DNA from: a bacterium
GTDB lineage: Bacteria; Bacillota_I; Bacilli_A; RFN20; CAG-826
Assembly (NCBI GenBank): GCA_963633165.1
Contig: CAVGXP010000038.1
Span: 56,290 to 120,289, forward strand
DNA length: 64,000 bases
Direction: 5' to 3'
The notes under the pieces were generated by a model, which did not search any database, was not told the DNA's origin, and worked only from the letters and a program-made list of their open reading frames with translations. The position numbers and the translations under genes are program-made. Shown here one piece after another: positions 5,992 to 61,362 of this stretch; position 1 is the stretch's first letter, and each line of letters begins with the position of its first letter.

Positions 5992-6693
5992 ATGAGGAAA
6001 TTATCCGCTAGGCTAAAAGCCGCCTACGATTTCGTGCCCAAAGGGTGCGTTTTCGGCGACATCGGGGCCGACCACGCTTATCTCACCCTTTCCCTTCTAG
6101 AAAGTGGAAAGATCGAATGGGCCGAAGCGGTGGAGAACAAACCCGGCCCCTTCATCCGCATGAAAAGCAACATCGACGCCTCACCTTTCTCTAGCCACGT
6201 CGTCTGTTCCCATAGCGATGGGCTTGACGATCTCCGGGGCAACGTCAATTGCCTTGCCATCTGCGGGATGGGCGGCAAACTGGCCTCGGAAATTCTAGAG
6301 AAAGGCAAAGAGAAGCTCGATAACGTCGACACGATCATTCTCGATCCTCACCGCGATTTAGCCGAAGTCAGGCGGAGAGTCGTCGAACTTGGCTATCGAA
6401 TCGAAGACGAGAAAATGGTCTATGAGGATAAAATCTATTATTCCATCATCCTTTTCGTTAAAGGTGTGCCCGCTAAGCCTTATACGAAAGCCGAGCTTGG
6501 ATTGGGGCCTATTCTTCTAAAAAAACTCGATCCCGTCTTCCTTTCTTTCATCTCAGAACAAAAAAAGAACGTGGGGAAGATCCTTGATAAGAACCTTTCT
6601 GAGGAAGCAAGGCGCAAATATTTGAATTTTTATCGCTTGCTCAAAGACGTTGAGGAGAAAGGGAAGCTCAAAGCGAGCTCAGGTAATCCCTGA
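5992..6693 (+). CDS. trmK: tRNA (adenine22-N1)-methyltransferase TrmK (YqfN family)
   Basis: N-terminus FVPKGCVFGDIGADHAYLTLSLL and its position right after sigA match the B. subtilis yqfN arrangement. Confidence 0.8.
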   Translation: MRKLSARLKAAYDFVPKGCVFGDIGADHAYLTLSLLESGKIEWAEAVENKPGPFIRMKSNIDASPFSSHVVCSHSDGLDDLRGNVNCLAICGMGGKLASEILEKGKEKLDNVDTIILDPHRDLAEVRRRVVELGYRIEDEKMVYEDKIYYSIILFVKGVPAKPYTKAELGLGPILLKKLDPVFLSFISEQKKNVGKILDKNLSEEARRKYLNFYRLLKDVEEKGKLKASSGNP

Positions 6694-7525
6694 CCGATAG
6701 GAATGTGTCCCTGGAAGTGGAAGTTCCGGAAGCCAGGGCGATTTTAGAGTATTTTTTTAAATCGAGTTTTTTGACTTGCTCCAAATCCAGGCAAAGGAAA
6801 GACGGGCAAGATAAAGAAGCGATCTGATAAAGCTTTTTGCTGTTATTTGACGTGGATGAACCAATGATTATCGCCGCATCGGCCTTGCTGGCGGCCTCTT
6901 TCATGGCTTTTTGCCGCATTGAGGTTGCTAAGCAACGGCCTTTAATGAATTTGACCTGCCCAAGCGTTCTCTCGATCGTTTTAACCGCCTCCTCGATTTC
7001 TTCCCCTGATAGCGTCGTCTGGGCAATGATAAAGGGAGAGGCGGGGCAATCCCTCCAATTGCCTTCCCCATTAGAAACCGAATAGAAATAAGCGTAAGGG
7101 CAATTGGCGAGGAAGGCCTCTTTTTCCAAATGCCCGTCCTGCCCGATGTAAATAAGAGGTTTCCTTCCCGTGGCCTCCTGCAGATTCTCGGTCACGAAGC
7201 AACAAGTCGCATCGTAGGCAAGGAGGTTTTTTCTCTCGGCGATGTCTTGATAAGAGAGAGGATGTCCGTGGGCGGAGAAAACGACGACGTCGCCTTCTTG
7301 CAGGCTTAAAAGCGCTTGTTTCAAATCCAGGCGGGATTCGTCCAGCAATTCCAAGCCTTGGCTTTCTAAGAAAGCGATCGCGTTCTCGTTATGAATCAAA
7401 CTGCCTAGAAGGCAAACCCTTTTAAGCGGGTTCTCCTTCTTTGCTTTGATGGCGATGCCCATGGCTTTCTCCACGCCGGAGCAATATCCGAAAGGGGTGA
7501 CAGAGAGGACTTCCATGGCGTTCAT
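6668..7525 (-). CDS. ispH: 4-hydroxy-3-methylbut-2-enyl diphosphate reductase IspH (LytB)
   Basis: GYCSGVEKA (GFCFGV-like) N-terminal motif and conserved HNE/SAHG regions. It overlaps the trmK 3' end convergently by about 26 bp. Confidence 0.85.
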   Translation of the reverse strand: MNAMEVLSVTPFGYCSGVEKAMGIAIKAKKENPLKRVCLLGSLIHNENAIAFLESQGLELLDESRLDLKQALLSLQEGDVVVFSAHGHPLSYQDIAERKNLLAYDATCCFVTENLQEATGRKPLIYIGQDGHLEKEAFLANCPYAYFYSVSNGEGNWRDCPASPFIIAQTTLSGEEIEEAVKTIERTLGQVKFIKGRCLATSMRQKAMKEAASKADAAIIIGSSTSNNSKKLYQIASLSCPSFLCLDLEQVKKLDLKKYSKIALASGTSTSRDTFLSVRDYLSSL

Positions 7526-8945: not shown

Positions 8946-10019
8946 TCATAACTTATCTATTTCCTTTATCATTTCTTCAACGATATTCTCGTCTTTGACT
9001 TGGCGCAAAATTTCGCCTTTTTTGAAAATGACCCAAACCCCGTTTCCTCCGGCGGCGCCTAAATCGGCGTGCCTAGCTTCCCCAGGGCCATTGACGATGC
9101 AGCCCATGATGGCCACGGTTTTGACGATTCGCTTTTGCTCCATATAGGACTGTATCTTTTTCGCGACGGGGATGAGGTTCACCTCCGTCCTGCCGCAGGT
9201 TGGGCAAGAGATGAAGGTAGGGTAGGAAGGGTATAACCCCAAATCGTGGAGAAGCCTATGGCAGGCCTTGACCTCTTCCTCGGGGTCATCGGAAAGAGAA
9301 ATGCGGATGGTGTCTCCGATCCCTTGCAGCAAAAGAGGGGATAAAGTGGCGGAGGAGCGGATCAGCCCGACGTCTTTAGGCCCGGCTTCAGTGACGCCTA
9401 GATGGAGGGGGTAGGGGAAAAGAGAAGAGGCTTCCTCATAAGCTTTTATGGTCTCAAGGGGCGAGGAACCTTTCAAGGATATGACGATGTCGTGGAAGTC
9501 GAGGTCTTCGAGAATCTGGATGTGCTTCTTCGCCGAAGCAACCAGATGAGAAGATGCGATGACGTCTTTTCCTTTGTAGATCTCGCTGTCCAAAGAACCG
9601 GAATTGACCCCGATGCGGATGGGGGCGTGATGGGCTTTGCAGGCGTCGACAACCTGCTTTATTTTTGAAATATCCCCGATGTTGCCGGGGTTTATCCTAA
9701 CTGCGTCGACGCCTCCTTCTAAAGCGAGCAAGGCGTATTTGTAATTGAAGTGGATGTCGGCGACCAAAGGGATGGAGACCCTCTCTTTGATTGCGGCGAA
9801 GCTTCTTGCATCTTCTTCATCCAAGCAAGAAAGCCGCATGATCTGGCATCCTAAGGCGGCACAACGGTTGATTTGCGCGGACACTTCCTCGACCTTGCTG
9901 GTCTTGATCGAAGCCATCGATTGGATGATGACTTTATCTTGTCCTCCGACTTGGATGGAGCCGACCTTGACGGGTCGGGTAGAATTTCTTTGAAGCATCA
10001 TGAAAACTATTCTAAGCAA
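8946..10019 (-). CDS. ispG: 4-hydroxy-3-methylbut-2-en-1-yl diphosphate synthase IspG (GcpE)
   Basis: TRPVKVGSIQVGGQDKVIIQSM N-terminus and the C-terminal FISCPTCGRTEVNL [4Fe-4S] motif. Confidence 0.9.
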   Translation of the reverse strand: MLRIVFMMLQRNSTRPVKVGSIQVGGQDKVIIQSMASIKTSKVEEVSAQINRCAALGCQIMRLSCLDEEDARSFAAIKERVSIPLVADIHFNYKYALLALEGGVDAVRINPGNIGDISKIKQVVDACKAHHAPIRIGVNSGSLDSEIYKGKDVIASSHLVASAKKHIQILEDLDFHDIVISLKGSSPLETIKAYEEASSLFPYPLHLGVTEAGPKDVGLIRSSATLSPLLLQGIGDTIRISLSDDPEEEVKACHRLLHDLGLYPSYPTFISCPTCGRTEVNLIPVAKKIQSYMEQKRIVKTVAIMGCIVNGPGEARHADLGAAGGNGVWVIFKKGEILRQVKDENIVEEMIKEIDKL

Positions 10020-20116: not shown

Positions 20117-20292
20117 GTTATAGTAGATTATTAGTAGATAATTGGTTGAAAATATTTCGATTATATCGTTACTTTTTCTATTTTAACAAATTTAGTTTAT
20201 CTTTGGTTTCAAAGACTTTGTCACAAGGCCTCTTGCTATTTAGGCCCCGTTGAATCTAGTCACGCACGCGCGCAAGGCTTAAAATCAAATCT

Positions 20293-20817
20293 ATGAGGAA
20301 ACGCTGCATCCCCTTCGCTTTGGCCGATTCGATTTATGAGCTTACGCCTTCTTTCTTCAAGGACCTTGGCGTCTCCGTTTTGCTGATGGACCTCGATAAT
20401 ACCATGGCCACCTACGATTCTTCTTTGCCTGATGAGAGAACCATCAATTGGGCGAAAAAAATTGAGGATGCGGGGATTAAAATCATCATTTGTTCCAATA
20501 ATTCTGGGAAACGCGTTGGCAAGTTTGCCAGCGTTTTGGGCTGTGACCATGCCTGCTGGATGAAAAAGCCCTTCTCCGGGCCCATGAAAAAGCTCATCAA
20601 AGAAAAAGATTTGAACAAAGACAAGGTCCTTTTGATCGGGGATCAGATCATGACCGACGTCAAAGCGGGGAATGGAGCTGGCATCCGTTGCATTCTGACT
20701 GAACCTTTAGGCAAAGTCGAACCTTTATGGACGAAATTCAACCGTATGTTCGACAAACCACTTCGAAAGAAAATCAAAGATAAAAAGCTCGCAAAGAGCT
20801 GGAGGGATTGCATATGA
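20293..20817 (+). CDS. yqeG: YqeG-family HAD-IIIA phosphatase
   Basis: LLMDLDNTMATYD (DxD HAD motif) and KIIICSNNSGKRV; operon context yqeG-yqeH. Confidence 0.8.
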   Translation: MRKRCIPFALADSIYELTPSFFKDLGVSVLLMDLDNTMATYDSSLPDERTINWAKKIEDAGIKIIICSNNSGKRVGKFASVLGCDHACWMKKPFSGPMKKLIKEKDLNKDKVLLIGDQIMTDVKAGNGAGIRCILTEPLGKVEPLWTKFNRMFDKPLRKKIKDKKLAKSWRDCI

Positions 20818-21959
20818 GCGAATTCAATGTCGTCAGACGTTGCTATGGCTGCGGGGCCGTGCTGCAAAGCGATGACCCTGAGCAGATCGGTTACATCGAT
20901 AAGGAAACCTTCGATCACGCCGAGATCTCGGCGCCTTTGTTCTGTGAGAAATGCTGGAAAGGGACGCGTTATAACACCGTCCCCGGAGAGGCTAAAGCGA
21001 GCGAGGAATTCCTTTCGATGCTTAAGGACGCTCAGGCTAGCGACGCGATGATCGTCTACGTGGTGAATCTGTTCTCTTTTGAATCCAGCTTCATCCGCAA
21101 CGTGTCCGAATTGCTTAGGGGCCTCCACGTGCTTGTCTTGGCCAACAAACGCGATTTGCTACCCGCTAAAGCCGATGACCGGAAATTGAAGGAATACGTC
21201 GCCGCGAGGTTCCGTCGTGCCTCCATAAACGTGAGCGCATCCGACGTCGAGCTCATCTCGCTCCGCTCCGCTTTGGATGTCTCTTCAATCGTAAATAAGA
21301 TCAACAAAACGAGAAAAGGCCATGATGTCTATGTTATAGGAGCTTCAGGAGCTGGCAAGACCATCTTCGTCAACGCTTTCTTAAGAGGGTACGCCAATCC
21401 CTCGAATAGGGCGGTTTCAATCAGCAAATATCCCAAAACGTCTCTTTCCGTCATGACCATCCCCTTGGATTCATCCTCTTCTTTATACGACACCCCGGGG
21501 ATTGCCATGGAGAATTCCCTCCTTTGCAAAGTCGATCCCTTGACTTGTCACAAGATGATCCCTCAAGAAGCGGTCAAAGGCAGGCCGAGTTCCCTAGGAG
21601 AAGGAGAAACGCTCATCTTCGGCGACAATCTCGTCAGAATCGAGCTTTTGAAGGGCGAGAGGACCCCTTTGAAAGTCTATTGTTCCAACGACATCGCCTT
21701 CTTCAAGCGACGCGGCAACAAAGTCGAGGACGCCTTCTATAAATTCATCGACCAAATCGGATCGAAGGATAACGTGGGCAAAAGAGGTCCTTCGGATTTC
21801 GACGCCTTCGAAATATCCATAAACGAAACAGGGGCCAGAGACATCGGAATTGAAGGGTTGGGCTGGATTTGCTTTACGGGCAAACACCAAAGCTTCAGGA
21901 TTTACGTGCCCAAAGGGGTCGCTTTGTATTACAATTCCGCGAAGCTGTCCCTGCAATGA
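20808..21959 (+). CDS. yqeH: Ribosome biogenesis GTPase YqeH
   Basis: N-terminal zinc finger (CYGCGAVLQ...CEKCW) and a circularly permuted GTPase (VLANKRDLLP...GASGAGKTIFVN). Confidence 0.85.
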   Translation: MHMSEFNVVRRCYGCGAVLQSDDPEQIGYIDKETFDHAEISAPLFCEKCWKGTRYNTVPGEAKASEEFLSMLKDAQASDAMIVYVVNLFSFESSFIRNVSELLRGLHVLVLANKRDLLPAKADDRKLKEYVAARFRRASINVSASDVELISLRSALDVSSIVNKINKTRKGHDVYVIGASGAGKTIFVNAFLRGYANPSNRAVSISKYPKTSLSVMTIPLDSSSSLYDTPGIAMENSLLCKVDPLTCHKMIPQEAVKGRPSSLGEGETLIFGDNLVRIELLKGERTPLKVYCSNDIAFFKRRGNKVEDAFYKFIDQIGSKDNVGKRGPSDFDAFEISINETGARDIGIEGLGWICFTGKHQSFRIYVPKGVALYYNSAKLSLQ

Positions 21960-21978: not shown

Positions 21979-22272
21979 ATGCTTAAAGGAAACCAAAAAA
22001 GATATTTGAAAGGCCTTGCCAACACGATCTCCCATCGTTATCTCCTTGGGAAAGGGGAAATCGATGAGGCTTTCTTAAAACAAATCGACGATGCTCTTGA
22101 AGCCAAAGAGCTCATCAAAGTCGGTTTGCTGCAGAATTCCTCCTACGAAGTTAAGGAAGCGGGAGCGTTGCTTGCAGAAAAAACTAACGCCGAGCTGGTC
22201 CAGACGATTGGAAAAGTCATCGTTTTGTACCGTAAATCCGTGAAGAACCCCAAAATCGTTCTTCCTCAATAA
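21979..22272 (+). CDS. yhbY: YhbY/YqeI CRM-domain RNA-binding protein
   Basis: MLKGNQKRYLKGLANTISHRYLLGKGEI...KELIKV CRS1/YhbY fold; 97 aa. Confidence 0.85.
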   Translation: MLKGNQKRYLKGLANTISHRYLLGKGEIDEAFLKQIDDALEAKELIKVGLLQNSSYEVKEAGALLAEKTNAELVQTIGKVIVLYRKSVKNPKIVLPQ

Positions 22273-22275
22273 AGA

Positions 22276-23331
22276 ATGCAACGTTTCAGCCGTTTTTATT
22301 ATCTAAGCGATTTCGATCCCATATCCTCCAAAGACATCGCTTTCGGCGAAACAATAGCCGCGGAGTCAAGGGCAGAAGTCGTTTTCCTTCCTTCTCCAAA
22401 CGGTCTTTTTTCAGACTGCATTGCCACCTCTAGGCAAAGAGAAGATATGCTCTCTTTGGCTTTGAGTTCAAAAGAAGGCAAAACGTTATCACTTGATTGT
22501 TCCTTAATAGAATCCGCCGACGTTGCCTCTGATTTAAAGAAATTTAAAGAATCCCAAAAAAGCGAAGCCTGCTTCCTTATTAGCGAGGACAATCTCGCGA
22601 TTCTTGAAAAGAAAGGGCTAAGAGATCTGTTTGGGAAGGAGATTCGCGCTTTCCCCGTTAAGAGCGTCAACGAAGCAATGCTTGAAGATGGGCAAATCAG
22701 CCTTCCCCGTCCAAAAGAGGTCAGGAACCTTGTCGACCCCTGCCTAGAACCTTGCATAAGGGCTTATATCGAAAAGGAAAGACTCTATTACGTCGATAAA
22801 CTCGCCTCTTTCCTAAAAAGTGAACATCGCTTGCTTCATAGTCTATCGGTTGGGAATTTGTCTTATCAGATAGCTTGCTCCAACAAACTAGAGAATCCTA
22901 TAAGCGCCTATGTCGCCGGCGTTCTTCATGACTTAGGCAAACATTGCCCAAAAGAAGAAGAGAAGGCAATAATGGAGGAATTCTTTAGCGAATACGCGGA
23001 TTTCCCTTCTTGGACCTTCCATCAGTTCACGGGGGCATATCTAGCTAGGAAAGAATTTGGCATCCAAGACGAAGTCGTCCTAGAAGCGATAAGAAGCCAC
23101 GCGACAGGAAAGAAAGATATGTCCCCGTTGGGGAAAATCATTTACAGCGCGGATAAGATTGATCCGCTTCGTGGCTATGACTCTACATGGATGATAGACG
23201 CCTGCAAGAAAGATTATGAGGAAGGGTTCTTGACCGTGCTGAGGGAAAACCGGACGTACTTGACGGAAAAGGGATACCTGGTCGATAATCCGCTGACGAA
23301 AGAATGCTTCGAAATGTATTTAAAAGATTAA
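22276..23331 (+). CDS. yqeK: Fusion of a degenerate NadD-like domain (HxGH motif lost) with a YqeK HD-domain phosphohydrolase
   Basis: The N-terminal ~170 aa align along the full length of NaMN adenylyltransferase (VVFLPSPNG ~ WFMPNQIPPHK; REDMLSLAL ~ RVEMLKLAI). The catalytic GGTFDPPHNGH is replaced by YLSDFDPISSKD. The C-terminal half is a YqeK HD domain (YVAGVLHDLGKH). Confidence 0.75.
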   Translation: MQRFSRFYYLSDFDPISSKDIAFGETIAAESRAEVVFLPSPNGLFSDCIATSRQREDMLSLALSSKEGKTLSLDCSLIESADVASDLKKFKESQKSEACFLISEDNLAILEKKGLRDLFGKEIRAFPVKSVNEAMLEDGQISLPRPKEVRNLVDPCLEPCIRAYIEKERLYYVDKLASFLKSEHRLLHSLSVGNLSYQIACSNKLENPISAYVAGVLHDLGKHCPKEEEKAIMEEFFSEYADFPSWTFHQFTGAYLARKEFGIQDEVVLEAIRSHATGKKDMSPLGKIIYSADKIDPLRGYDSTWMIDACKKDYEEGFLTVLRENRTYLTEKGYLVDNPLTKECFEMYLKD

Positions 23332-23341
23332 GGAGAATAAC

Positions 23342-23683
23342 ATGAGCGAACTCAAAGAATTGACTTTAGCAAAAAAGGTCCTCGAGGATCACAAAGCCGA
23401 AGAGGTGGCGGTGGTGGATGTGAACGGTTTCTCGCCGTTCTCAAGCTATTATGTCTTAGCCACGGCGACCAACATCCGTCATCTTGGAGCCTTGTCCGAC
23501 GCCCTCATCGAGGAATTTGAAAAAGAAGGATACGAATCCATCAAAAAGGACGGAATCCCTGAATCCGGCTGGATGATTGTTGAAGCAGGAGAAGTTGTTG
23601 TGCATCTCTTCATTTCCGTCAATAGAAAAGAAATTGACCTCGAAGGTCTCTTACAAAAAGAAATCACCTCCAAACGTGCGTAA
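23342..23683 (+). CDS. rsfS: Ribosomal silencing factor RsfS (Iojap/YqeL)
   Basis: Iojap-family signature (EEVAVVDVNGFSPFSSYYVLATATNIRHL...EGLLQKE) at the end of the yqeG-H-I-K operon. Confidence 0.9.
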   Translation: MSELKELTLAKKVLEDHKAEEVAVVDVNGFSPFSSYYVLATATNIRHLGALSDALIEEFEKEGYESIKKDGIPESGWMIVEAGEVVVHLFISVNRKEIDLEGLLQKEITSKRA

Positions 23684-23704
23684 GCAGAAGAAGTGGAAGC
23701 TATA

Positions 23705-23741
23705 AAGCGGTTGGCAGCTGTCCAACCGCTTTTATTTTTAG
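23705..23741 (+). terminator. Rho-independent terminator after rsfS
   Basis: AAGCGGTTGG-cagctgt-CCAACCGCTT (10-bp stem) followed by TTATTTTT. Confidence 0.7.
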
Positions 23742-24083: not shown

Positions 24084-24905
24084 CTATTTCTCTTTCTTTT
24101 TCAATATCAAGAAAGGAATATCGATTATGGCCATCAAAAGCAAGACGATCAAAGAATACGCCGGGATTTCTTCAATGCCACCGCTGGACTGCCTAGACAT
24201 CACGATCAATGTCCCGATTCCTATTTTGCCCACGCTGCTGGAAGTCAGAACCTCGGCCATGATTGAAACCTTAAACGATAGACCGAAGGATTGGGCTAAG
24301 CTCATTCTTATATATTTCCAGGAATCCGGGAGATAGATTTCTTTTATTGTCAGAATCTTCCTCTGAGCTCCTTCAATCCTTAATGAATCCAATATATCGC
24401 CTTCCTCGTTTTCTATCCCCGAAGAAAAAGCCTGATAATAAAGCGGGAAACATACAACGAAAGACAGAGCGACGGGAATCCAGCTTAACCAAGCGTGCGC
24501 TTTCATCCCCATCAACACGGAAATCAGCATTAAAACCACCGCCGCCGTCGGTATCGCCCTCAATATGGATATGCACGGGCGCATAAAATCTTTGAAGCGA
24601 GGATAGACGCCAGACAAAACGCCGAAAAACCCTCCTAGAAGGAAGGAAATAACGAAGGCGATCGCGATTCTAAGAAGCGTCCATCCTATCGCCATCCAGG
24701 TCGAAGGAGCCTGGGTCAAGAAAAGAAACGAAAACGCCAAAGAAACCGTATCCCATGGATAAGGTATTCCGTTGTTCCCATTCTTTTTAAGACAAAAAGC
24801 TAATAAGAACCAAGTTAGGAAAATGAGTGTTACGCCTGATAGGCAAGCCAAAAAGCGAGGCAGGGTGCTGTTTTTGAGTGTCCACCGCTTCCTTTTTTCG
24901 CCCAT
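24084..24905 (-). CDS. ABC transporter permease, NitT/TauT (SsuC-like) family
   Basis: Six TM helices and a BPD-transporter EAA-like loop; 273 aa. Translationally coupled to the upstream lipoprotein gene. Confidence 0.7.
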   Translation of the reverse strand: MGEKRKRWTLKNSTLPRFLACLSGVTLIFLTWFLLAFCLKKNGNNGIPYPWDTVSLAFSFLFLTQAPSTWMAIGWTLLRIAIAFVISFLLGGFFGVLSGVYPRFKDFMRPCISILRAIPTAAVVLMLISVLMGMKAHAWLSWIPVALSFVVCFPLYYQAFSSGIENEEGDILDSLRIEGAQRKILTIKEIYLPDSWKYIRMSLAQSFGLSFKVSIMAEVLTSSSVGKIGIGTLIVMSRQSSGGIEEIPAYSLIVLLLMAIIDIPFLILKKKEK

Positions 24906-24907
24906 AT

Positions 24908-25897
24908 TTAAATTAGGAACATTTCCTCAGGATAAGTCTCTCCGCCGAAAGATGAAGAGAAATTATCAGCGGTTTGCTTGGCCGTGCTTCCTTTTTGATC
25001 GAGACAGAAGCCGAAAGCGTTGTTTTTCTGAAGATTCGTCAAGTTAGCAACAATGCTTGTTGAGATGCCGAATTTATAAAGATTGTCCGCGACGACATGG
25101 GAAGGATCGCTGCTTTGATATTCTTCCAGCGCTTTTTGGGCGATTTGAGGCTCATGGACCAATGCATTGAGCCTTTCATCTGTTTTGGAGAGGAATTCGT
25201 CGTAAACGTCTTTGTGCTTTGAATAGCCTTCCTTATTGATGAACAAGGCGGCGCTAGGGATTTTCATGCCACCATGAGCCTTGCCCCATTCTTCTTGCAG
25301 GTCGTAGATTAGATGAAGCCCATCGCCCATTTTGGCTTTGAGATTGGTGTAAGCGGGATCGGCGATCAAATAGAAATCGTAGGCGTTGGTCGCTAAATTG
25401 GTGACGACGCTATCGACTCCATTTTCGTATGTGATGGTTCCTAATGAGGACAGATCGCCCCAATTCCAAACGTTAGATGCCAAATTAAGCAAACAACGGG
25501 AAGCGTTCCCGGTCGCGACAAATGAATTGACGGTCCAAGAGACGTCCCAAGAAGAAACGTCTTCTTTGGTATGCGTCTTTGAGACGAGGTAAAAGCCGAG
25601 GTTATTGATCCACCTGGCGAGTTTGTAATTGGAGGCGGAAGCGTTTTTGCTCATCAAATTGAGCCCTGAGATACCATCGAAGACGATGCCGTCATAGGAA
25701 TTTGCGGCGAAACTAGGGACGACAACCTCCGAAGGGTTGCTTGCAGAAATCCAGAAAGGGTTCTCACCCTGATCATAAAACGCTAAGGTCGGAGCTCCGG
25801 TTGGGGTGACCCAAGAAAAAACGTATGAATTGTTATTGCCTGAGCAAGATGCAAGGGCAAGCAAAGCCAGAGGAGCGAGAACGATTGTTTTCTTCAT
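24908..25897 (-). CDS. Lipoprotein, putative ABC substrate-binding protein (unknown ligand)
   Basis: Signal peptide with lipobox LALASC. It lies immediately upstream of and in an operon with the permease, and no ATPase gene is adjacent. Confidence 0.5.
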   Translation of the reverse strand: MKKTIVLAPLALLALASCSGNNNSYVFSWVTPTGAPTLAFYDQGENPFWISASNPSEVVVPSFAANSYDGIVFDGISGLNLMSKNASASNYKLARWINNLGFYLVSKTHTKEDVSSWDVSWTVNSFVATGNASRCLLNLASNVWNWGDLSSLGTITYENGVDSVVTNLATNAYDFYLIADPAYTNLKAKMGDGLHLIYDLQEEWGKAHGGMKIPSAALFINKEGYSKHKDVYDEFLSKTDERLNALVHEPQIAQKALEEYQSSDPSHVVADNLYKFGISTSIVANLTNLQKNNAFGFCLDQKGSTAKQTADNFSSSFGGETYPEEMFLI

Positions 25898-29319: not shown

Positions 29320-31194
29320 TCAGTCGACCATCTTAAGAACCTGCTCGTAAGCTTGGTCTAGGCCGCAATTAGAATCTTCCAATTGATTGGCGAGGCTATC
29401 GTAAGGGATAAATTCGTTTTTGATGCTTAAAGAGACGACCTTGCCTTTATAGGAAAGTTTCATCAAGGAGGCAAGCAGGCTTTGGCAGAAACCTTCTTCG
29501 GTTCCATAAGGGTCATAAATGAGAATGGAATCGTAACAAAGGAGCTTCTTGACCTCGTTTTCCAAAACCGGATTCAAATAAACCGGATCGAAGAAAGAAC
29601 AGGCAATGTTGTTTTCATGCAGCTTCAAACGTAGCTGCTCGCCTAAAGGGCCAACGCCAACGACGACGGTTTTGGCGTTAGGATATTGGAAACCTCTCCA
29701 ACAAAACGAAGGCAAATAAGAGGATTTGATTTCTTCGGGCTTTGGTAGAGATACACCAGGATAACGAATCGCGAAAACGCCGTTGTAATCGAAGGATTTA
29801 TCAAACAAAGCCTTCGCGACATCCGGGGTTGAGGGCATGGAAACGACAACATGCGGAATCGATTTGAGGAAAGCTTCATCGTAGATGCCTTGATGGGTTT
29901 CGCCGTTTTTCCCCACCAGCCCAGCGCGATCGATAAGCAGCGTCAAATTGGCACCCATTCTGGCGCAGTCGTGGGAAATCTCGTCGTATGCGCGTTGCAT
30001 GAAACTCGAGTAAATAGAGACGATGGGCTTTTTACCAGTCAACGACAAGGCACCGGCGAAAGTCAAGGCGTGCTCCTCGGCGATTCCTACATCGAGGCAG
30101 CGGCCTTTGTAAGTCGCATAAGCGTGCTCAAGCTCAGAGCCTTTTAAAGTCGCGGGAGTAATCAAAACGGTTTCTTCGTCTTCCTTCATTTTATCTTCAA
30201 TGAAGGAAGCAAAAAGAGCGGACCAGCTGATGGAAGATGCGTTTTCCTCTTTCTCAAGCCCCTTGTTTAAGTCAAATGGAGGAACGGAATGGTAATCCCC
30301 GGTCTTGTCCGCTTCGGCTAAGGGATAGCCTTTCCCTTTAATGGTGTGGCAATGAATAAGCACGGATTTCGTCGTGTTTTTAGCCGATTTGAATGCTTTT
30401 TCGAGCGCTCTTTGGTTATGCCCGTCCACAGGCCCGATATAGGTGAAGCCCATGTTGTCGAACATCGTTATCGGAACAAGACGAGATTTCAGCGCTCTTT
30501 TAAAACGCGCGGAGAAATCGTAGATTTTTCGCCCCGCGACGGTTCTATATAAGACGCGCATATAGCCTTTTTTGGCTTTGTTGTAGATTTTGCCCGTGGA
30601 GATGCGACGGAAGAACTTCCCCGCGCCACCGATGGGTTTAGAAATCGACATGGCGTTGTCGTTTAGGATAACGATGACTTTGTTCGATCTTTCCCCAATG
30701 TTGTTCAACGCCTCGAAGCTCAAGCCATTGACGATGGAGGCGTCTCCGACGACGGCGATGACGTTGTAATTCTCTTTTCTGGAATCTCTAGCGTAGGCAA
30801 AAGCTTCCGCGGCCGACAAAGCCGTTGAACTATGGCCGGCATCATAGGGGTCGTAAATGGACTCTTTGCGGTTCTGGAACCCGTTTGTATGTCCTTTTTC
30901 GTTAAGATGCTCGAGGCTTCTGCCGGTTAGGAGCTTATGCGCGTAGCATTGGTGGCCGACGTCGAAGATAAGTTTGTCTTTTGGGAAGTCGAAAACCCGG
31001 TGCAACGCCAAGGTGATCTCGATGTCGCCGAGGTTGCTCGAAAGGTGCCCTCCATAGGTGGAGGTGATCCGAAGAATCTCTTCGCGAAGAGCCTTCGCAA
31101 GACGCTTCAAGTCTTTGTAGTCGAGCGTTTTTAAAAAAGATGGGTCTTTAATGTCATTTATATTAATTGTTTCGACGCCGTCTTTCTTTTTCAT
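29320..31194 (-). CDS. dxs: 1-deoxy-D-xylulose-5-phosphate synthase
   Basis: ThDP-binding GHLSSNLGDIEITLALH.. and DVGHQCYAHKLLTGR; 624 aa. No obvious SD; the ATG is directly preceded by TTTAGTAGTTTATTAGTAT. Confidence 0.9.
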   Translation of the reverse strand: MKKKDGVETININDIKDPSFLKTLDYKDLKRLAKALREEILRITSTYGGHLSSNLGDIEITLALHRVFDFPKDKLIFDVGHQCYAHKLLTGRSLEHLNEKGHTNGFQNRKESIYDPYDAGHSSTALSAAEAFAYARDSRKENYNVIAVVGDASIVNGLSFEALNNIGERSNKVIVILNDNAMSISKPIGGAGKFFRRISTGKIYNKAKKGYMRVLYRTVAGRKIYDFSARFKRALKSRLVPITMFDNMGFTYIGPVDGHNQRALEKAFKSAKNTTKSVLIHCHTIKGKGYPLAEADKTGDYHSVPPFDLNKGLEKEENASSISWSALFASFIEDKMKEDEETVLITPATLKGSELEHAYATYKGRCLDVGIAEEHALTFAGALSLTGKKPIVSIYSSFMQRAYDEISHDCARMGANLTLLIDRAGLVGKNGETHQGIYDEAFLKSIPHVVVSMPSTPDVAKALFDKSFDYNGVFAIRYPGVSLPKPEEIKSSYLPSFCWRGFQYPNAKTVVVGVGPLGEQLRLKLHENNIACSFFDPVYLNPVLENEVKKLLCYDSILIYDPYGTEEGFCQSLLASLMKLSYKGKVVSLSIKNEFIPYDSLANQLEDSNCGLDQAYEQVLKMVD

Positions 31195-41179: not shown

Positions 41180-42757
41180 TCATCCTTTTCTAGGAAAACA
41201 GGAAGCAAGAAGACGAAGGGAAGTCGCGCCTTTGTATTCGTCGAGTTCGAATTTCACGCATAAAGAAGTCTTCTCGGAATCTAGGAAATCCTTCTTCCCA
41301 AGCTCAAACGAGCAAAGCTTGACGCCTTTGCCTAAAGGGGTGAGGAGGTATTTGCCGTCTTTAGAGTAAACAAAGCCATCGACATCAAGCCCGCTTAAAC
41401 AGAAAATGGGCTCTGGATGGCCTTCTCCAAAAGGAGCGAAAGCGCGGATTATGCGATAAGAATCCATGTTGGCTTCGCTTAAAGAGAGCGGGATCATCGT
41501 GGGTGGCTCCTCTAGAAAAGGGTGGGTGGCGCAATAAGAGAGGTAGAATTTCTTGAATGAGGGGAAGTCCTCTGCTTTGATGGTCAATCCGCCAGAGCAA
41601 TCGTGGCCTCCATAAGTTAAAGCGTATCCTTTGGCTTTATCGAAGAAATCGATTAAAGAGAAACCCTTCTCGCTGCGCAAAGAACCTACGAGTATGCTCG
41701 GGTCGCCGTGCTTTGGTGAGAATACGGCGGAAGGAACATGATGGGCTTTCATGATTTTGTTGGCCAATAGGCCGTTCAAGCCCTCTTTGATGTTTAGATT
41801 AAGGATGACTCCGCTGCTTCCTTCCACAAATGAAATGTCGGAAGAAACGTGCTTCAAAAGAGATTTCCGTTCCTCATTCACCCTCTTCATCCAACTTGAA
41901 ATCGCTAATCTTGAGTTAGGATCGCGCAAAGCAAAATAATCCACCGCTTTCATGGTCTGATGGCCTTCCATCATCCTGCCAAGGGCGTTGATGATGGGGA
42001 TGATTTCCATTTTCAGGACTTTCTCGTCGATGTGGGATTTACTCGTAAGATAGCAAATTTCCTCGATGGGGCTTTGCCTCATTACCCGAAAACTCAATCT
42101 GACGATCTCGCGGTTGATCGAAGACAAAGGCATCATGTCTGAAAGGGTAGTAATCGCGGCTAGGGTCAGCAAATAGTTGTCCACGCGGCCAAGCAAGGCA
42201 ATAGAGAACAAAAAGCAGACGAATCCGGCGGAGATGTTGAAACCCGCTTTCTGCCCAATGCCTAAGGTGATTGGGTGAATAAGAGAAAGGCAAGGCGGGT
42301 AAGGCTCATTCAATTCATGATGGTCCAGAATCAAAGTATCGATGCCGTTTGAGAGAAGATAAGCCACCGCTTCAAAGCATGAGACTCCGTTATCGACGCA
42401 GATGAGGAGCGTATAGCCTTTTTCTTTGATCTTCTTCGCGTTTTCAAGCGTCAAGCCATACCCATCAAGATAACGGCTGGGGATGAAATATTTCGCCTCG
42501 ATGCCGTATTCCAATAGACAACGAGTCAAAATCGACGTCCCTAAAATCCCATCCGCATCGTAATCCCCATAGATGAGAACTTTTTCTTTATTTTGTTTGG
42601 CTTTTTCAAGGCGCGTCCTCGCCTTTAAAAAAGCGGGATCGCTAGAAATATCCGGGAAACAGGAAAAGGAGGGTTCCTCGCTGTTACGCGAGAACTCCTC
42701 CTCTGTCCAGGAATAATATTTCTTAAGTCTTTCTTTCAGGCTTTCCATCTCAATCAA
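41180..42757 (-). CDS. recJ: Single-stranded-DNA-specific exonuclease RecJ
   Basis: DHH motifs (VLIYGDYDADGI, LICVDNGV, DHH) and DHHA1; 525 aa. Overlaps the secDF stop. Confidence 0.85.
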   Translation of the reverse strand: MIEMESLKERLKKYYSWTEEEFSRNSEEPSFSCFPDISSDPAFLKARTRLEKAKQNKEKVLIYGDYDADGILGTSILTRCLLEYGIEAKYFIPSRYLDGYGLTLENAKKIKEKGYTLLICVDNGVSCFEAVAYLLSNGIDTLILDHHELNEPYPPCLSLIHPITLGIGQKAGFNISAGFVCFLFSIALLGRVDNYLLTLAAITTLSDMMPLSSINREIVRLSFRVMRQSPIEEICYLTSKSHIDEKVLKMEIIPIINALGRMMEGHQTMKAVDYFALRDPNSRLAISSWMKRVNEERKSLLKHVSSDISFVEGSSGVILNLNIKEGLNGLLANKIMKAHHVPSAVFSPKHGDPSILVGSLRSEKGFSLIDFFDKAKGYALTYGGHDCSGGLTIKAEDFPSFKKFYLSYCATHPFLEEPPTMIPLSLSEANMDSYRIIRAFAPFGEGHPEPIFCLSGLDVDGFVYSKDGKYLLTPLGKGVKLCSFELGKKDFLDSEKTSLCVKFELDEYKGATSLRLLASCFPRKG

Positions 42758-49528: not shown

Positions 49529-50422
49529 TTAGTCTTCCGTTTGGGTGATGGTTAAGGCAAAGGATGGGTTGAATTCAAGCTCGGTTTCGGTGCGCTTATA
49601 TTGCTCCGCGTTCCAATTGACGATGACGCAATTGCCGTAAGTGAAGGCGGCTTTGTAGGAAGAGGAGGCGATTTTGTTTTGGGAGAAGGAATCGGCGACC
49701 TCATACGGCCGTCCGTCTTTGAAGCGATGGTATTCAGAATAGACATCGGTGTAATCTCTTAGCTCATGGATGGATTCACCGAAATAAACGCTGTCGAAAT
49801 AGGATTGGTAGCTCCTGGTGTCCCCTCCTTCAAGAACAAGGTCAGATTCGCTGCCGCTAGGGGAATAGGCGACGGATTCGCTGGCAAAGCTGATTGGGGA
49901 GACGCTGCCATCATACCGGTTGAGATAATCGTAGGCCACGTCTTCCATTTGATTGAATTGGGCGCGGTTTTCGTTCTCGAAAAGATTAAGCAAGGTAAGA
50001 AAACGGGTTTTATCGATGACGTTATATTGCCTTCTGACGGACATCGTGTTCACCGCGAAGATGTATTGCTCTTCCAAATCCACGATGCTCCCTTCCGAAT
50101 CGGTTGAGGCGGCGACGTTAGAGAAAAGGAAGAAGTCATTTCTTGTGACGTTAGAGGGATCACTGGATGAGGTGTAATGCTTGGCTGAGAAATAGGCGTA
50201 TTTTCCCTTCTGGAAACGCACGTCCACGGAGGTATACCAACCTTTGGAAAGTTCAAGGTAAGAAGCGGAAAACGAATCCTCTTCCATGGTCTTTCTATTT
50301 TCGTAGATGCTTTTAGCGTAGGTCACGCTATCCTCGATGCTGATCCTCTGTTTATTTGAACATCCAGAGGCAAGGGTAAGGATTGAAACGCCTATCAGGG
50401 CGATTTTCATTTTGTTGTTCAT
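49529..50422 (-). CDS. Lipoprotein of unknown function within the glycan utilisation locus
   Basis: Signal peptide and lipobox (ILTLASGC); about 295 aa, rich in Tyr/Ser/Asp, with no recognisable catalytic motif. Its start overlaps the end of the GH13 gene, suggesting co-transcription. Confidence 0.55.
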   Translation of the reverse strand: MNNKMKIALIGVSILTLASGCSNKQRISIEDSVTYAKSIYENRKTMEEDSFSASYLELSKGWYTSVDVRFQKGKYAYFSAKHYTSSSDPSNVTRNDFFLFSNVAASTDSEGSIVDLEEQYIFAVNTMSVRRQYNVIDKTRFLTLLNLFENENRAQFNQMEDVAYDYLNRYDGSVSPISFASESVAYSPSGSESDLVLEGGDTRSYQSYFDSVYFGESIHELRDYTDVYSEYHRFKDGRPYEVADSFSQNKIASSSYKAAFTYGNCVIVNWNAEQYKRTETELEFNPSFALTITQTED

Positions 50423-50442
50423 GTTCTTGTATATCCTCTCTT

Positions 50443-52149: not shown

Positions 52150-52153
52150 TGGA

Positions 52154-56069: not shown

Positions 56070-56142
56070 AAAACGCTCCTAGAACGGCGAAACCTCCGGG
56101 GGCCTTGCGACCCCCGGAAGCGATAGTCGATGATTCAGCGGA

Positions 56143-58032: not shown

Positions 58033-58183
58033 CGATTACTTCTCCTTTCTAAAAATTAGCGGGAAGCAATGCGCGGAAGGGTTGCTCAAAACGAATCAAA
58101 TCCGCCCGCAAAAAGCTTTGCTCCCTAGTAATTTTTGATCAACATGGTCATATTCTAGTCATTGTTCCACGGGATGTAAAGTT

Positions 58184-58205
58184 AAAATGTAACCTCTTAC
58201 ATTTT
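58184..58205. promoter_or_regulatory. Operator-like perfect inverted repeat upstream of the binding-protein/MalFG operon
   Basis: AAAATGTAA-cctc-TTACATTTT (9-bp arms) about 150 bp upstream of the binding-protein start. The half-site ATGTAAA recurs 10 bp upstream. Confidence 0.35.
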
Positions 58206-58285
58206 CTTTGCAATTGATAAAAAACGCCGAAGGCATCGGATTTTTTCCTTTGGCGTTAAAAGTTGGCGATTAAAACGGTTTGAGC

Positions 58286-60967: not shown

Positions 60968-61018
60968 GTTTATCTCCAAACTGAGGCCATTGTATACGCT
61001 TACAAGGCGTTTTTAAAG

Positions 61019-61065: not shown

Positions 61066-61362
61066 TTACTTCGCTTCGACGGGATAGACAGAGGCCTTTT
61101 TGCGGGTCTTGCCCCAACGCTCGAATTTGACGATGCCATCGATGACCGCGAAGAGGGTGTCATCTCCGCCCTTCATGACGTTTTCGCCCGGATAGATGCG
61201 GGTTCCGCGCTGACGGTAGATGATGGATCCAGCGGTGACGAATTGACCGTCGCCGACTTTGGCACCGAGCCTACGCCCGGCGGAATCACGGCCGTTCTTG
61301 GTCGAACCGACGCCTTTCTTCGAAGCGAAGAATTGAATGTCGAGGACAAATTTCAATTTCAT
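61066..61362 (-). CDS. rpmA: 50S ribosomal protein L27 with an N-terminal propeptide
   Basis: [13 protein letters not shown]|[14 protein letters not shown]... is the Firmicutes-type L27 with a cleavable N-terminal extension ahead of the conserved ASKKGVGST. Confidence 0.95.

What the first reader, a model, noticed from the sequence alone, without database searches (positions are those of the whole stretch)
22276..23331. Catalytically dead NadD-like domain fused in-frame to the YqeK HD phosphohydrolase
The ORF after yhbY(yqeI) occupies the position of nadD+yqeK in the conserved yqeG-H-I-J-K-L operon. Its N-terminal ~170 aa align over the full NaMN adenylyltransferase fold, but the essential (H/T)xGH nucleotidyltransferase signature GGTFDPPHNGH is replaced by YLSDFDPISSKD, with both His lost. 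The downstream PPHK lysine region is also degenerate (LPSPNG). The domain is fused without a stop to a YqeK HD domain (YVAGVLHDLGKH) that looks intact. This suggests either a NadD pseudo-enzyme retained as a structural or regulatory module of YqeK (an Ap4A hydrolase family), or NAD salvage relocated elsewhere in the genome.
Basis: partly seen in the sequence, partly recalled or inferred. Interest (0 to 1): 0.6.

Follow-up and report, generated by a model that had tools for sequence, protein, structure and literature searches.

The report
Dead NadD domain fused to YqeK
This gene encodes an apparently working YqeK alarmone (Ap4A) hydrolase that still carries the folded but catalytically gutted remains of the NAD-making enzyme NadD, which shows that a group of uncultured gut bacteria gave up this normally essential enzyme while keeping its shell.

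Summary
ORF 22276-23331 (+, 351 aa) lies in a yqeG-yqeH-yhbY-[ORF]-rsfS operon.

- **C-terminal half:** a bona fide YqeK HD hydrolase. It scores above the TIGR00488 cut-off, keeps all six metal ligands, and has TM about 0.8 to YqeK crystal structures.
- **N-terminal 160 aa:** NadD-derived by profile and fold evidence. It has lost both His of (H/T)xGH (now S17-S18-K19-D20), the GG loop, the basic loop equivalent to E. coli H45/R46, the SSTxxR motif, and about 15 residues net of the fold. NadD models score about 17 bits against cut-offs above 112.
- **Not an artefact:** the same architecture and synteny occur in relatives at 93%, 65%, 60% and 47% identity.
- **Origin:** the dead forms are nested among 92 fully intact NadD-YqeK fusions from uncultured gut and rumen Bacilli. 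One main dead clade has 86% bootstrap support, and there are at least one or two further independent losses.
- **Selection:** the dead domain evolves about three times faster than the HD half but remains under purifying selection (omega 0.35-0.39 against 0.11-0.13).

It is a new pseudoenzyme variant of the known NadD-YqeK fusion. I could not test how these genomes make NAD.

The parts
22276..23331 (+). Whole ORF (351 aa plus stop): pseudo-NadD domain fused to a YqeK HD phosphohydrolase
   Evidence: ORF; HD/YqeK hits; AlphaFold pLDDT 93.2, pTM 0.91, two packed domains
22276..22755 (+). N-terminal NadD-derived pseudoenzyme domain (aa 1-160), a beta-alpha-beta nucleotidyltransferase-like core
   Evidence: Intact-fusion N-domain HMM E=3.5e-7. 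Dead-clade-only profile hits NadD structures and NadD proteins. Foldseek: all 50 top hits are NadD/NMNAT, TMq up to 0.67. Curated NadD models score only about 17 bits. PF01467 is not detected.
22303..22338 (+). Degenerate ATP motif L10-S-D-F-D-P-I-S-S-K-D-I21, replacing GG(S/T)FDP(I/V)HNGH(L/I)
   Evidence: Alignment A1. Frequencies in 92 intact fusions: G92, H92, G88, H92 at the positions of S11, S17, K19, D20. E. coli H19A leaves 0.62% activity.
22384..22416 (+). Degenerate substrate loop F37-LPSPNGLFSD47 (equivalent of the E. coli NadD N40...P-P-H45-R46 loop; PxxxPRWK in intact fusions)
   Evidence: Mapping via one search gives H45 to L44 and R46 to F45. Intact fusions have R (78/92) and W (82/92) at these positions.
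22708..22725 (+). Remnant of the C-terminal SS(T/S)xxR ATP-binding motif: R145-P-K-E-V-R150 (only the Arg retained)
   Evidence: intact: S90, S92, S/T 87, R88 of 92
22756..23328 (+). YqeK-type HD phosphohydrolase half (aa 161-351), predicted symmetrical Np4N (Ap4A) hydrolase
   Evidence: TIGR00488 E=6.5e-32, 110.8 bits against cut-off 70.15. Pfam HD 1.1e-13. Foldseek to YqeK structures 3ccg, 2o08, 8wmy, 8jk9 with TMt 0.79-0.81.
22837..23154 (+). Span containing the six binuclear-metal ligands H188 (22837-22839), H218-D219 (22927-22932), H249 (23020-23022), H275 (23098-23100), D293 (23152-23154)
   Evidence: Invariant in all 35 sequences of A1 and in 92 intact plus 21 dead fusions. The spacing matches GtYqeK ligands H21, H50, D51, H83, H109, D127 (PMC13627108).
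20293..20817 (+). yqeG (HAD-IIIA phosphatase), first gene of the operon
   Evidence: TIGR01668 E=3.6e-26, above cut-off
20808..21959 (+). yqeH (ribosome biogenesis GTPase), TTG start overlapping the yqeG end
   Evidence: TIGR03597 E=5.4e-72, below the curated cut-off; PF21516 YqeH-like_C
21979..22272 (+). yhbY/yqeI (CRM-domain RNA-binding ribosome assembly protein)
   Evidence: PF01985 E=7.8e-25
23342..23683 (+). rsfS/yqeL (ribosome silencing factor)
   Evidence: TIGR00090 E=1.7e-21
23704..23732 (+). Intrinsic-terminator-like hairpin (11-bp stem, T-run) closing the operon
20257..20285 (+). Promoter-like site just upstream of yqeG (weak consensus match, 9 of 12)
   Evidence: consensus scan only

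Best explanation
The gene encodes a YqeK-type HD phosphohydrolase whose N-terminal 160 residues are a folded but catalytically inactive relic of NaMN adenylyltransferase (NadD). By homology, YqeK enzymes hydrolyse Ap4A and other Np4N symmetrically and remove Np4 caps from RNA. The ancestor was a bifunctional NadD-YqeK fusion of the kind found in mycoplasmas and in most uncultured gut and rumen Bacilli related to this organism. In the window's clade the NadD half lost its C-terminal ATP motif and part of the fold, and then lost the HxGH histidines and the NaMN-binding loop. The HD half stayed fully constrained. The dead domain is kept because the protein still needs it. The most likely reason is that it is a structural partner packed against the HD domain; a residual ligand-binding or regulatory role is less likely. 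The adenylyltransferase step of NAD synthesis must therefore be supplied by another enzyme, or NAD or a precursor must be imported. Shown here: NadD ancestry, loss of catalytic residues, an intact HD site, clade-wide conservation, and purifying but relaxed selection. Inferred: the Ap4A hydrolase activity, the structural role of the dead domain, and the alternative NAD route.
For: YqeK half: TIGR00488 scores 110.8 bits against a 70.15 cut-off. All six metal ligands are invariant (mapped). TM is about 0.8 to YqeK crystal structures. NadD ancestry of the N half: the intact-domain HMM gives E=3.5e-7. The dead-only profile has NadD structures as its top 8 PDB hits and retrieves 177 proteins from 1.84e9 representatives, of which 8 of 10 sampled carry PF01467. 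The dead-only AlphaFold model matches only NadD/NMNAT structures among its 50 top hits. Loss of catalysis: the HxGH position reads S-S-K-D, the GG loop reads S-D, and the E. coli H45/R46 equivalents are L44/F45. SSTxxR is lost and there is a 16-column deletion. In E. coli NadD, H19A leaves 0.62% activity and H45 and R46 are needed. Second-His mutants of NMNATs block NAD synthesis. NadD HMMs score 17 bits against cut-offs of 112-187. Not an artefact: the same gene and synteny occur at 93% and 59% identity. Derived state: dead forms are nested among intact fusions, and the main dead clade has 86% bootstrap support. Retention under selection: omega for the N-domain is 0.35 (p=0.007) and 0.39 (p=2e-4), against 0.11 and 0.13 for the HD half. 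At matched HD identity the N-domain identity is 0.22-0.35 in dead fusions against 0.45-0.57 in intact ones. Rigid two-domain model, pTM 0.91.
Against: No biochemical data exist for any member. Some ancestral positions persist: F13-D14-P15, R55, R150, D105 in the window, and Ser/Thr at the first motif position, which is allowed in (H/T)xGH. An Asp is invariant at the former second-His position in the window subclade (9 of 9). This hints at a retained or new ligand-related role rather than a purely structural one. No alternative NMN/NaMN adenylyltransferase was found, but only 64 kb plus short flanks could be searched. The dN/dS estimates rest on two unsaturated pairs and a simple Nei-Gojobori method. 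I had no model coordinates, so the state of the old ATP pocket and the domain interface were not inspected.
Confidence: 0.76

Rival explanations
1. The dead NadD domain has been repurposed as a ligand-binding module. It would still bind a nucleotide or dinucleotide (ATP, NaMN, NAD or NaAD, or one half of Np4N or capped RNA) and use that to regulate or target the HD hydrolase.
For: Purifying selection on the domain. Conservation of F13-D14-P15, R55 and R150 in 19-21 of 21 dead-clade sequences, and a newly fixed invariant Asp at the former second-His position in 9 of 9 window-subclade sequences. A similar T/S-x-x-D pattern appears in other dead fusions, P0063 and P0070. Catalytically inactive NMNATs are known to keep non-catalytic (chaperone) functions.
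Against: Most residues that contact ATP phosphates and the pyridine nucleotide are gone, including the Trp-containing segment. The conserved residues are mostly the same ones conserved in intact NadDs, and could be fold-stabilising. N-domain identity across the dead clade is only 22-35%. There is no direct binding evidence.
Confidence: 0.13
2. The N-domain is a functionless remnant drifting toward loss. It is still present only because too little time has passed, or because deleting it would disrupt translation or expression of the downstream HD half.
For: It evolves about 3 times faster than the HD half. N-domain length varies from 144 to 166 aa among dead lineages, and motifs decay step by step. 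The 130-152 segment is low-confidence when modelled without the HD half.
Against: Omega is significantly below 1 in both unsaturated pairs. The frame is open in every lineage, down to about 22% N-domain identity and saturated dS. No relative with the domain cleanly deleted was seen inside the dead clade. The shorter proteins (207-279 aa, 49-54% query coverage: P0014, P0050, P0051, P0056, P0057) were not examined and may be fragments. The fold is confidently predicted.
Confidence: 0.07
3. The N-domain is still an active NaMN/NMN adenylyltransferase using a non-canonical active site.
For: NAD is indispensable, and no other NadD-like gene was seen in the sequence available. D14 and D105, equivalents of E. 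coli D13 and D109, are present in the window.
Against: The second His, whose Ala mutant has 0.62% activity, together with H45 and R46 equivalents, the GG loop, SSTxxR and a fold segment, are all missing at once. D105 is not conserved in the dead clade. 92 of 92 intact relatives keep every one of these residues, so their joint loss marks release from catalytic constraint.
Confidence: 0.03
4. Sequencing or assembly error, or a recent pseudogene.
For: None beyond the unusual motif.
Against: The same sequence state occurs in independent assemblies at 100% (P0207), 93%, 65%, 60% and 47% identity with conserved synteny. The frames are open and selection is purifying.
Confidence: 0.01

Closest known systems
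Bifunctional NadD-YqeK fusion of mycoplasmas and related Bacilli (NCBIfam NF005519 / PRK07152; e.g. JCVISYN3A_0380, mBio 2022, PMC9426524)
   Same: Same two-domain order (NadD-type domain, then a YqeK HD domain), similar length, same operon slot, and direct phylogenetic descent: the window protein is nested among intact fusions. The HD half matches the model at E=1.8e-41.
   Different: Only profile positions 170-350 of 361 match. The total score is 142 bits against a cut-off of 315. All NadD catalytic motifs are lost and the N-domain is shortened. In JCVI-Syn3A the NadD half is an active, if promiscuous, adenylyltransferase that YqeK is proposed to proofread. Here there is nothing left to proofread.
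Stand-alone YqeK, the symmetrical Ap4A/Np4N hydrolase and Np4-RNA decapping enzyme of Firmicutes (TIGR00488; PDB 3ccg, 2o08, 2ogi, 8wmy, 8jja)
   Same: Above-cut-off HMM score, the six metal ligands, fold TM about 0.8, and position upstream of rsfS.
   Different: It carries a 160-aa N-terminal pseudo-NadD domain. Stand-alone YqeK is about 190 aa and a homodimer. The oligomeric state here is unknown.
NadD, nicotinate-nucleotide adenylyltransferase (PF01467; TIGR00482; PDB 1kam, 1k4k, 2h29, 3e27)
   Same: Rossmann-like nucleotidyltransferase fold. Retained F-D-P core, R55 (E. coli R56) and R150. Detectable profile homology.
   Different: Lacks (H/T)xGH, the GG loop, the PPH(K/R)-type loop, the Trp segment and SSTxxR. 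It scores about 17 bits against cut-offs of 112-187.
Catalytically inactive NMNAT variants with non-enzymatic (chaperone) function in eukaryotes
   Same: Second-His substitution of the (H/T)xxH motif abolishes NAD synthesis while the protein keeps another function. This is a conceptual precedent for a useful dead NMNAT-fold protein.
   Different: Those are engineered point mutants of otherwise intact enzymes. Here the loss is natural, affects several motifs and occurs in a fusion protein. No chaperone role is indicated.

Membership tests
NadD (NaMN adenylyltransferase, PF01467 / TIGR00482 / NF000839) | Score at or above the curated family cut-off | tested here: not met
   PF01467 not reported even at E<=10. 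TIGR00482 scores 17.3 bits against 112.45. NF000839 scores 17.4 bits against 187.
NadD (NaMN adenylyltransferase, PF01467 / TIGR00482 / NF000839) | (H/T)xGH ATP-binding motif | tested here: not met
   S17-S18-K19-D20. The second His is H in 92 of 92 intact relatives and D in 9 of 9 of the window subclade.
NadD (NaMN adenylyltransferase, PF01467 / TIGR00482 / NF000839) | C-terminal SxTxxR (ISSTxxR) ATP motif | tested here: not met
   R145-P-K-E-V-R150; only the Arg is kept.
NadD (NaMN adenylyltransferase, PF01467 / TIGR00482 / NF000839) | Substrate loop with His/Arg (E. coli H45, R46) needed for catalysis | tested here: not met
   L44 and F45 (mapping; mutagenesis; frequencies).
NadD (NaMN adenylyltransferase, PF01467 / TIGR00482 / NF000839) | Nucleotidyltransferase alpha/beta (Rossmann-like) fold | tested here: met
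   Foldseek hits to NadD/NMNAT structures only, TMq 0.46-0.67.
NadD (NaMN adenylyltransferase, PF01467 / TIGR00482 / NF000839) | NaMN + ATP -> NaAD activity | not testable with these tools
   Requires an enzyme assay or complementation.
YqeK (bis(5'-nucleosyl)-tetraphosphatase, symmetrical; TIGR00488) | Score at or above the curated cut-off | tested here: met
   110.8 bits against 70.15, E=6.5e-32, residues 182-333.
YqeK (bis(5'-nucleosyl)-tetraphosphatase, symmetrical; TIGR00488) | Six binuclear-metal ligands (GtYqeK H21, H50, D51, H83, H109, D127) | tested here: met
   H188, H218, D219, H249, H275, D293 with matching spacing, invariant in all relatives.
YqeK (bis(5'-nucleosyl)-tetraphosphatase, symmetrical; TIGR00488) | YqeK fold | tested here: met
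   TMt 0.79-0.82 to 3ccg, 2o08, 2ogi, 8wmy and 8jk9.
YqeK (bis(5'-nucleosyl)-tetraphosphatase, symmetrical; TIGR00488) | Genomic context in the yqeG...rsfS cluster | tested here: met
   yqeG-yqeH-yhbY-[ORF]-rsfS, conserved in relatives.
YqeK (bis(5'-nucleosyl)-tetraphosphatase, symmetrical; TIGR00488) | Symmetrical Ap4A hydrolysis / Np4 decapping activity | not testable with these tools
   Requires an enzyme assay.
Bifunctional NadD-YqeK fusion (NF005519 / PRK07152) | Full-length match above the curated cut-off | tested here: not met
   142.3 bits against 315. Only profile positions 170-350 of 361 are aligned.
Bifunctional NadD-YqeK fusion (NF005519 / PRK07152) | Two-domain architecture, NadD-fold N-terminal and HD C-terminal, in one polypeptide | tested here: met
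Bifunctional NadD-YqeK fusion (NF005519 / PRK07152) | Catalytically competent NadD half | tested here: not met
   All NadD motifs are lost. This is judged from sequence only; activity was not assayed.

The most novel reading that the evidence does not exclude
The dead NadD domain is not just scaffolding but a re-purposed sensor or targeting module. It would keep a partial nucleotide pocket (F13-D14-P15, Ser/Thr17, R55, R150, plus a newly fixed Asp20) and couple the Np4N-hydrolase/decapping activity of YqeK to the pyridine- or adenine-nucleotide state of the cell, or to dinucleotide-capped RNA ends. That would make it a naturally evolved pseudoenzyme regulator in alarmone turnover. A corollary is that a whole clade of gut Bacilli lacks NadD altogether and depends on NMN, NR or NAD obtained from the community.
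Probability: 0.13. Interest if true: 0.7.

Novelty: new variant of a known kind. Interest (0 to 1): 0.5.

Why it matters
NadD is treated as a near-universal, essential bacterial enzyme and an antibiotic target (it is essential in E. coli). A clade of gut bacteria that let it die implies a different NAD economy, either another adenylyltransferase or dependence on precursors from the community, and gives a concrete prediction to test in those genomes.

The case is also a natural separation-of-function experiment for the NadD-YqeK pair. YqeK stays under strong constraint (omega about 0.11) after NadD catalysis is gone. Its core role therefore cannot be only to proofread NadD's mistakes, as proposed for the mycoplasma fusion. 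This fits the independent Ap4A/Np4-cap hydrolase role.

There is a practical consequence too. These proteins hit 'nicotinate-nucleotide adenylyltransferase' models with strong E-values through the HD half alone (1.8e-41). Homology-based annotation and metabolic reconstructions can therefore wrongly credit these organisms with the NadD step.

Finally, the graded series of intact forms, forms that have lost SSTxxR but keep HxGH, and fully dead forms gives an unusually clear picture of how an enzyme domain decays inside a fusion.

Tried and rejected
1. **Truncated variants.** Several 272-aa members of the P0004 cluster suggested that the dead domain might be disrupted in some strains. Translating the upstream DNA (L084:1282-2319) shows an open frame encoding the whole N-domain from a TTG start, so these are gene-calling artefacts.

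2. **A second NadD nearby.** An HMM of intact N-domains run with --max on six-frame translations found nothing else in the 64 kb window (next best E=0.84). It also found no second ORF in any of the 83 fetched loci. Pfam annotation of 30 other window genes found only housekeeping and starch-utilisation genes, with no NAD genes.

3. **The rest of the genome.** The window's exact protein, and its identical copy P0207 on a 135-kb NCBI contig, are not in the contig index. The question of another nadD, nadR or nadM stays open.

4. **NAD riboswitches or other regulatory RNAs.** The Rfam gathering scan of the whole window found only an L21 leader.

5. **dN/dS on distant pairs.** dS is saturated beyond about 75% HD identity. 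Only window-L001 and L002-L004 are usable. The first attempt had two out-of-frame CDS extractions, corrected.

6. **Literature.** No paper in the held library describes a catalytically dead NadD domain or NadD pseudoenzyme. A search for RFN20 plus NAD gave nothing relevant. Minazzato et al. 2020 (PMC7186459), the paper defining YqeK as an Ap4A hydrolase, is not held.

7. **A single origin of all dead fusions.** This is rejected by the HD-half tree: 0 of 200 bootstraps unite them.

8. **The N-domain belonging to a different nucleotidyltransferase family (PPAT or similar).** PPATs appear only as weak hits, and only when the profile contains intact sequences. NadD/NMNAT structures dominate the structure searches and take the top eight places in the dead-only profile search, whose lower ranks include unrelated proteins and one PPAT at E>0.09.
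Full report
**What is there**

The window (GC 50%) carries an ORF at 22276-23331 on the + strand. It is 351 aa and starts 3 nt after the stop of yhbY. It sits in a compact co-directional cluster:
- yqeG (20293-20817)
- yqeH (20808-21959)
- yhbY/yqeI (21979-22272)
- the ORF
- rsfS/yqeL (23342-23683)

A promoter-like site lies just upstream of yqeG, and a strong terminator hairpin (23704-23732) lies just after rsfS.

**The C-terminal half is an intact YqeK**

- Residues 182-333 score 110.8 bits on TIGR00488 (YqeK, symmetrical bis(5'-nucleosyl)-tetraphosphatase) against a cut-off of 70.15. Pfam HD gives 1.1e-13.
- The AlphaFold model of the full protein is very confident (pLDDT 93.2, pTM 0.91).
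- Its C-terminal half superposes on YqeK crystal structures 3ccg, 2o08, 2ogi, 8wmy and 8jk9 with target-normalised TM 0.79-0.82.
- The binuclear-metal ligands of Geobacillus YqeK are H21, H50, D51, H83, H109 and D127 (PMC13627108). They correspond, with matching spacing, to H188, H218, D219, H249, H275 and D293. These are invariant in all 35 sequences of alignment A1 and in 92 intact plus 21 dead fusions.

By homology the expected activity is Mn-dependent symmetrical cleavage of Ap4A/Np4N and removal of Np4 caps from RNA. This was not tested here.

**The N-terminal half is NadD-derived**

General libraries barely see it. PF01467 is not reported even at E<=10. Curated NadD models give about 17 bits (E about 3e-3) against cut-offs of 112-187. 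The mycoplasma-type fusion model NF005519 aligns only through its HD half, at profile positions 170-350 of 361, scoring 142 bits against a cut-off of 315.

Four independent lines establish the ancestry:
1. An HMM built from the N-domains of 12 intact related fusions hits this ORF at E=3.5e-7 in the six-frame translation of the window. The next best hit has E=0.84.
2. A profile made only from eight dead-clade N-domains (A2) has NadD structures as its eight best PDB hits, with E from 2e-3 to 8e-2.
3. The same profile, searched exhaustively against 1.84 billion representative proteins, finds 177 proteins at E<=1e-3. Their lengths fit fusions (about 360-370 aa) and stand-alone NadDs (about 190-220 aa). 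Eight of ten sampled carry PF01467, and the other two are further dead fusions.
4. An AlphaFold model of the N-domain built from the dead-only alignment (pLDDT 78, pTM 0.75) has the same beta-alpha-beta core. Its 50 best Foldseek hits are all NadD/NMNAT structures, with TMq up to 0.67.

**The catalytic apparatus is gone**

The table compares 92 non-redundant intact fusions with the window.

| Feature | Intact fusions | Window |
|---|---|---|
| ATP motif | GG(S/T)FDP(I/V)HNGH, with G, H, G, H in 92, 92, 88, 92 of 92 | S11, S17, K19, D20 |
| Substrate loop | PxxxPRWK, with R in 78 and W in 82 of 92 | L44, F45 |
| Acidic residue after beta4 | D in 92 of 92 | D105, but variable across the dead clade |
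| C-terminal ATP motif | SS(S/T)xxR | R145-P-K-E-V-R150, only the Arg kept |

In addition, a 16-column alignment gap removes the Trp-containing segment that follows the GxD motif. The domain is 165 aa instead of about 180.

Mapped through the HMMER alignment to E. coli NadD, the replacements are:
- T11 becomes D12
- H16 becomes S17
- G18 becomes K19
- H19 becomes D20
- N40 becomes S40
- H45 becomes L44
- R46 becomes F45

D13 and D109 are kept as D14 and D105. In E. coli NadD, H19A alone leaves 0.62% activity, and H45, R46 and D109 are assigned to catalysis (PMC1249556). Second-His mutants of eukaryotic NMNATs block NAD synthesis (PMC12470169). Losing all these elements together makes canonical adenylyl transfer very unlikely. 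This is an inference from sequence, not an assay.

**It is a clade trait, not an error**

The closest homologues, at 93%, 65%, 60%, 59% and 47% identity, share the degenerate motif DFDP(I/V)(S/T)xKD or close variants. They have no PF01467 call. The 93% and 59% relatives have the same gene order over more than 20 kb. A protein identical to the window's exists on an independent 135-kb NCBI contig. Apparent 272-aa truncated versions are gene-calling artefacts, because the upstream frame is open.

Relatives come from uncultured gut and rumen MAGs labelled Bacilli, Mollicutes, Erysipelotrichaceae, Candidatus Enteromonas or Alloenteromonas. NCBI places Alloenteromonas in Bacillota incertae sedis. 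From memory, GTDB places these genera in order RFN20; I did not verify this.

**Evolutionary picture**

On an NJ tree of the HD half, the window falls in a large clade of degenerate fusions nested among intact ones. That clade is recovered in 86% of 200 bootstraps.

All members of the clade lack SSTxxR and 15-35 residues of the N-domain. A complete HxGH survives only on some early branches (P0008, P0032/L042, P0015). This suggests that the C-terminal motif and the fold segment were lost first and the histidines decayed afterwards, more than once.

Two other degenerate groups (L020/P0029/P0033 and L061/L069) never join the main clade: 0 of 200 bootstraps unite all dead fusions, or the main clade with either group. 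Inactivation therefore appears to have happened at least two or three times. This rests on a single-domain NJ tree, and the groups themselves have weaker support (67% and 28%). More dead fusions appear among the representatives: P0063, P0070, P0087, P0093, P0137 and P0171.

**Selection**

For the two pairs with unsaturated dS:

| Pair | Omega, N-domain | Omega, HD half |
|---|---|---|
| window vs L001 | 0.35 (excess of synonymous changes, p=0.007) | 0.11 |
| L002 vs L004 | 0.39 (p=2e-4) | 0.13 |

At matched HD-half identity, intact fusions keep their N-domains about as conserved as the HD half: 45%, 50% and 57% in the 40-50%, 50-60% and 60-70% bins. Dead fusions have only 22%, 22% and 35%. Constraint on the N-domain is thus clearly relaxed after inactivation, but it is not abolished.

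The positions that stay conserved in the dead clade (F13, D14, P15, F37, A50, R55, M58, L59, R150) are mostly also conserved in intact NadDs. The exception is D20. It replaces the second His and is invariant in the window subclade, 9 of 9.

**Most likely mechanism**

The protein works as a YqeK Np4N hydrolase. The N-terminal domain no longer makes NaAD. It is retained because the fused HD enzyme depends on it, most simply as a folded partner. The full-length model is rigid (pTM 0.91), and segment 130-152 is confident only in the presence of the HD half.

A residual ligand-binding or regulatory role is a live alternative, at about 13%. Neutral decay (about 7%), cryptic catalysis (about 3%) and artefact (about 1%) are less likely.

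Because NAD is indispensable, the adenylyltransferase step must be supplied by another enzyme, or NAD or a precursor must be imported. I could not test this. No other NadD-like ORF exists in the window or in any fetched flank. No NAD-pathway gene or NAD riboswitch is in the 64 kb. No whole genome of the clade was reachable.

**Comparison with what is known**

NadD-YqeK fusions are known in mycoplasmas. In JCVI-Syn3A the NadD half is active and promiscuous, and YqeK was proposed to proofread its products (PMC9426524). Stand-alone YqeK is an established Ap4A/Np4N hydrolase and decapping enzyme.

The present protein meets the tested YqeK criteria. It fails the sequence-defined criteria for NadD and for the bifunctional fusion family. 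It is best described as a pseudoenzyme variant of that fusion. I found no description of such a dead NadD domain in the held literature.

**Verdict**

The finding is a new variant of a known kind. It is of moderate interest (0.5) for four reasons:
- It documents natural loss of a supposedly essential enzyme.
- It decouples YqeK from NadD catalysis.
- It warns about misannotation.
- It offers a graded series of domain decay.

Its main open question, where NAD comes from, is directly testable with complete genomes.

Noticed in passing
L004, L008, L027, L032, L036, L041, L045, L054, L055, L061: Many MAG contigs carrying this Bacilli-type operon and fusion are labelled with unrelated taxa in their record titles: uncultured Bacteroidales, Paludibacteraceae, Parasutterella excrementihominis, Bacteroides uniformis, Lachnospiraceae, Sodaliphilus, Hallerella, Oscillospiraceae, Roseburia hominis. 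All come from the '...-L1_cleanbin' series, so these bins appear to be taxonomically mislabelled.
   Followed up: no
P0008, P0032/L042, P0015: Intermediate fusions keep a complete HxGH (FNPVHQGHL, FDPVHQGHI) but have already lost SSTxxR and about 30 residues of the N-domain. They may mark the first step of inactivation, or could retain partial nucleotide binding.
   Followed up: partly
window 22333-22335 (D20) and relatives P0063, P0070: The second catalytic His is replaced by an invariant Asp in the window subclade (9 of 9). A similar (T/S)xxD pattern recurs in other dead fusions. This looks like a non-random substitution and is unexplained.
   Followed up: partly
window 53160-56069 (-): A 969-aa ORF whose only Pfam hit (BPD_transp_1, ABC permease) covers residues 821-955. 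The N-terminal 800 or so residues have no hit at E<=1e-6. It lies in a starch/pullulan utilisation cluster with a second permease, a 629-aa SBP that has a roughly 250-aa N-terminal extension, an alpha-amylase and a pullulanase (50443-60979).
   Followed up: no
window 42754-45624 (-): A 956-aa ORF with only a weak SecD/SecF C-terminal hit (E=8.4e-9). It is probably a divergent SecDF fusion, sitting between recJ and ruvB.
   Followed up: no
window 24908-25897 (-) and 49529-50473 (-): Two ORFs (329 and 314 aa) have no Pfam family at E<=1e-6. The first has a lipoprotein-like N-terminus (…LALASCSG…) and sits beside an ABC permease (24084-24905). Its counterpart in L002 (331 aa) also has no Pfam hit. 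It may be a substrate-binding protein of an undescribed family.
   Followed up: no
window 20808-21959 (+): yqeH is divergent: TIGR03597 scores 242.9 bits, below the 297.4 cut-off, and its orthologue in L002 has no precomputed Pfam hit. It uses a TTG start that overlaps the end of yqeG by 10 nt. Compared with the B. subtilis yqeG-yqeM cluster (from memory), the shikimate dehydrogenase gene and yqeM are absent.
   Followed up: no
window 62025-62091 (-): Ribosomal protein L21 leader (Rfam RF00559, 38.4 bits against 36), upstream of small ORFs at 61691-61999 and 61359-61685. It is the only Rfam family found in the 64 kb.
   Followed up: no
window 6668-7525 (-), 8946-10019 (-), 29320-31194 (-): The MEP-pathway genes ispH and ispG (Pfam LYTB and GcpE) are present. 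The ORF at 29320-31194 is probably dxs, judged from its size and its syntenic position to the DXP_synthase_N gene of L002; it was not scanned itself. Transketolase and relA are also present. The organism is therefore less reduced than classical mycoplasmas, even though its relatives are labelled 'Mollicutes'.
   Followed up: no
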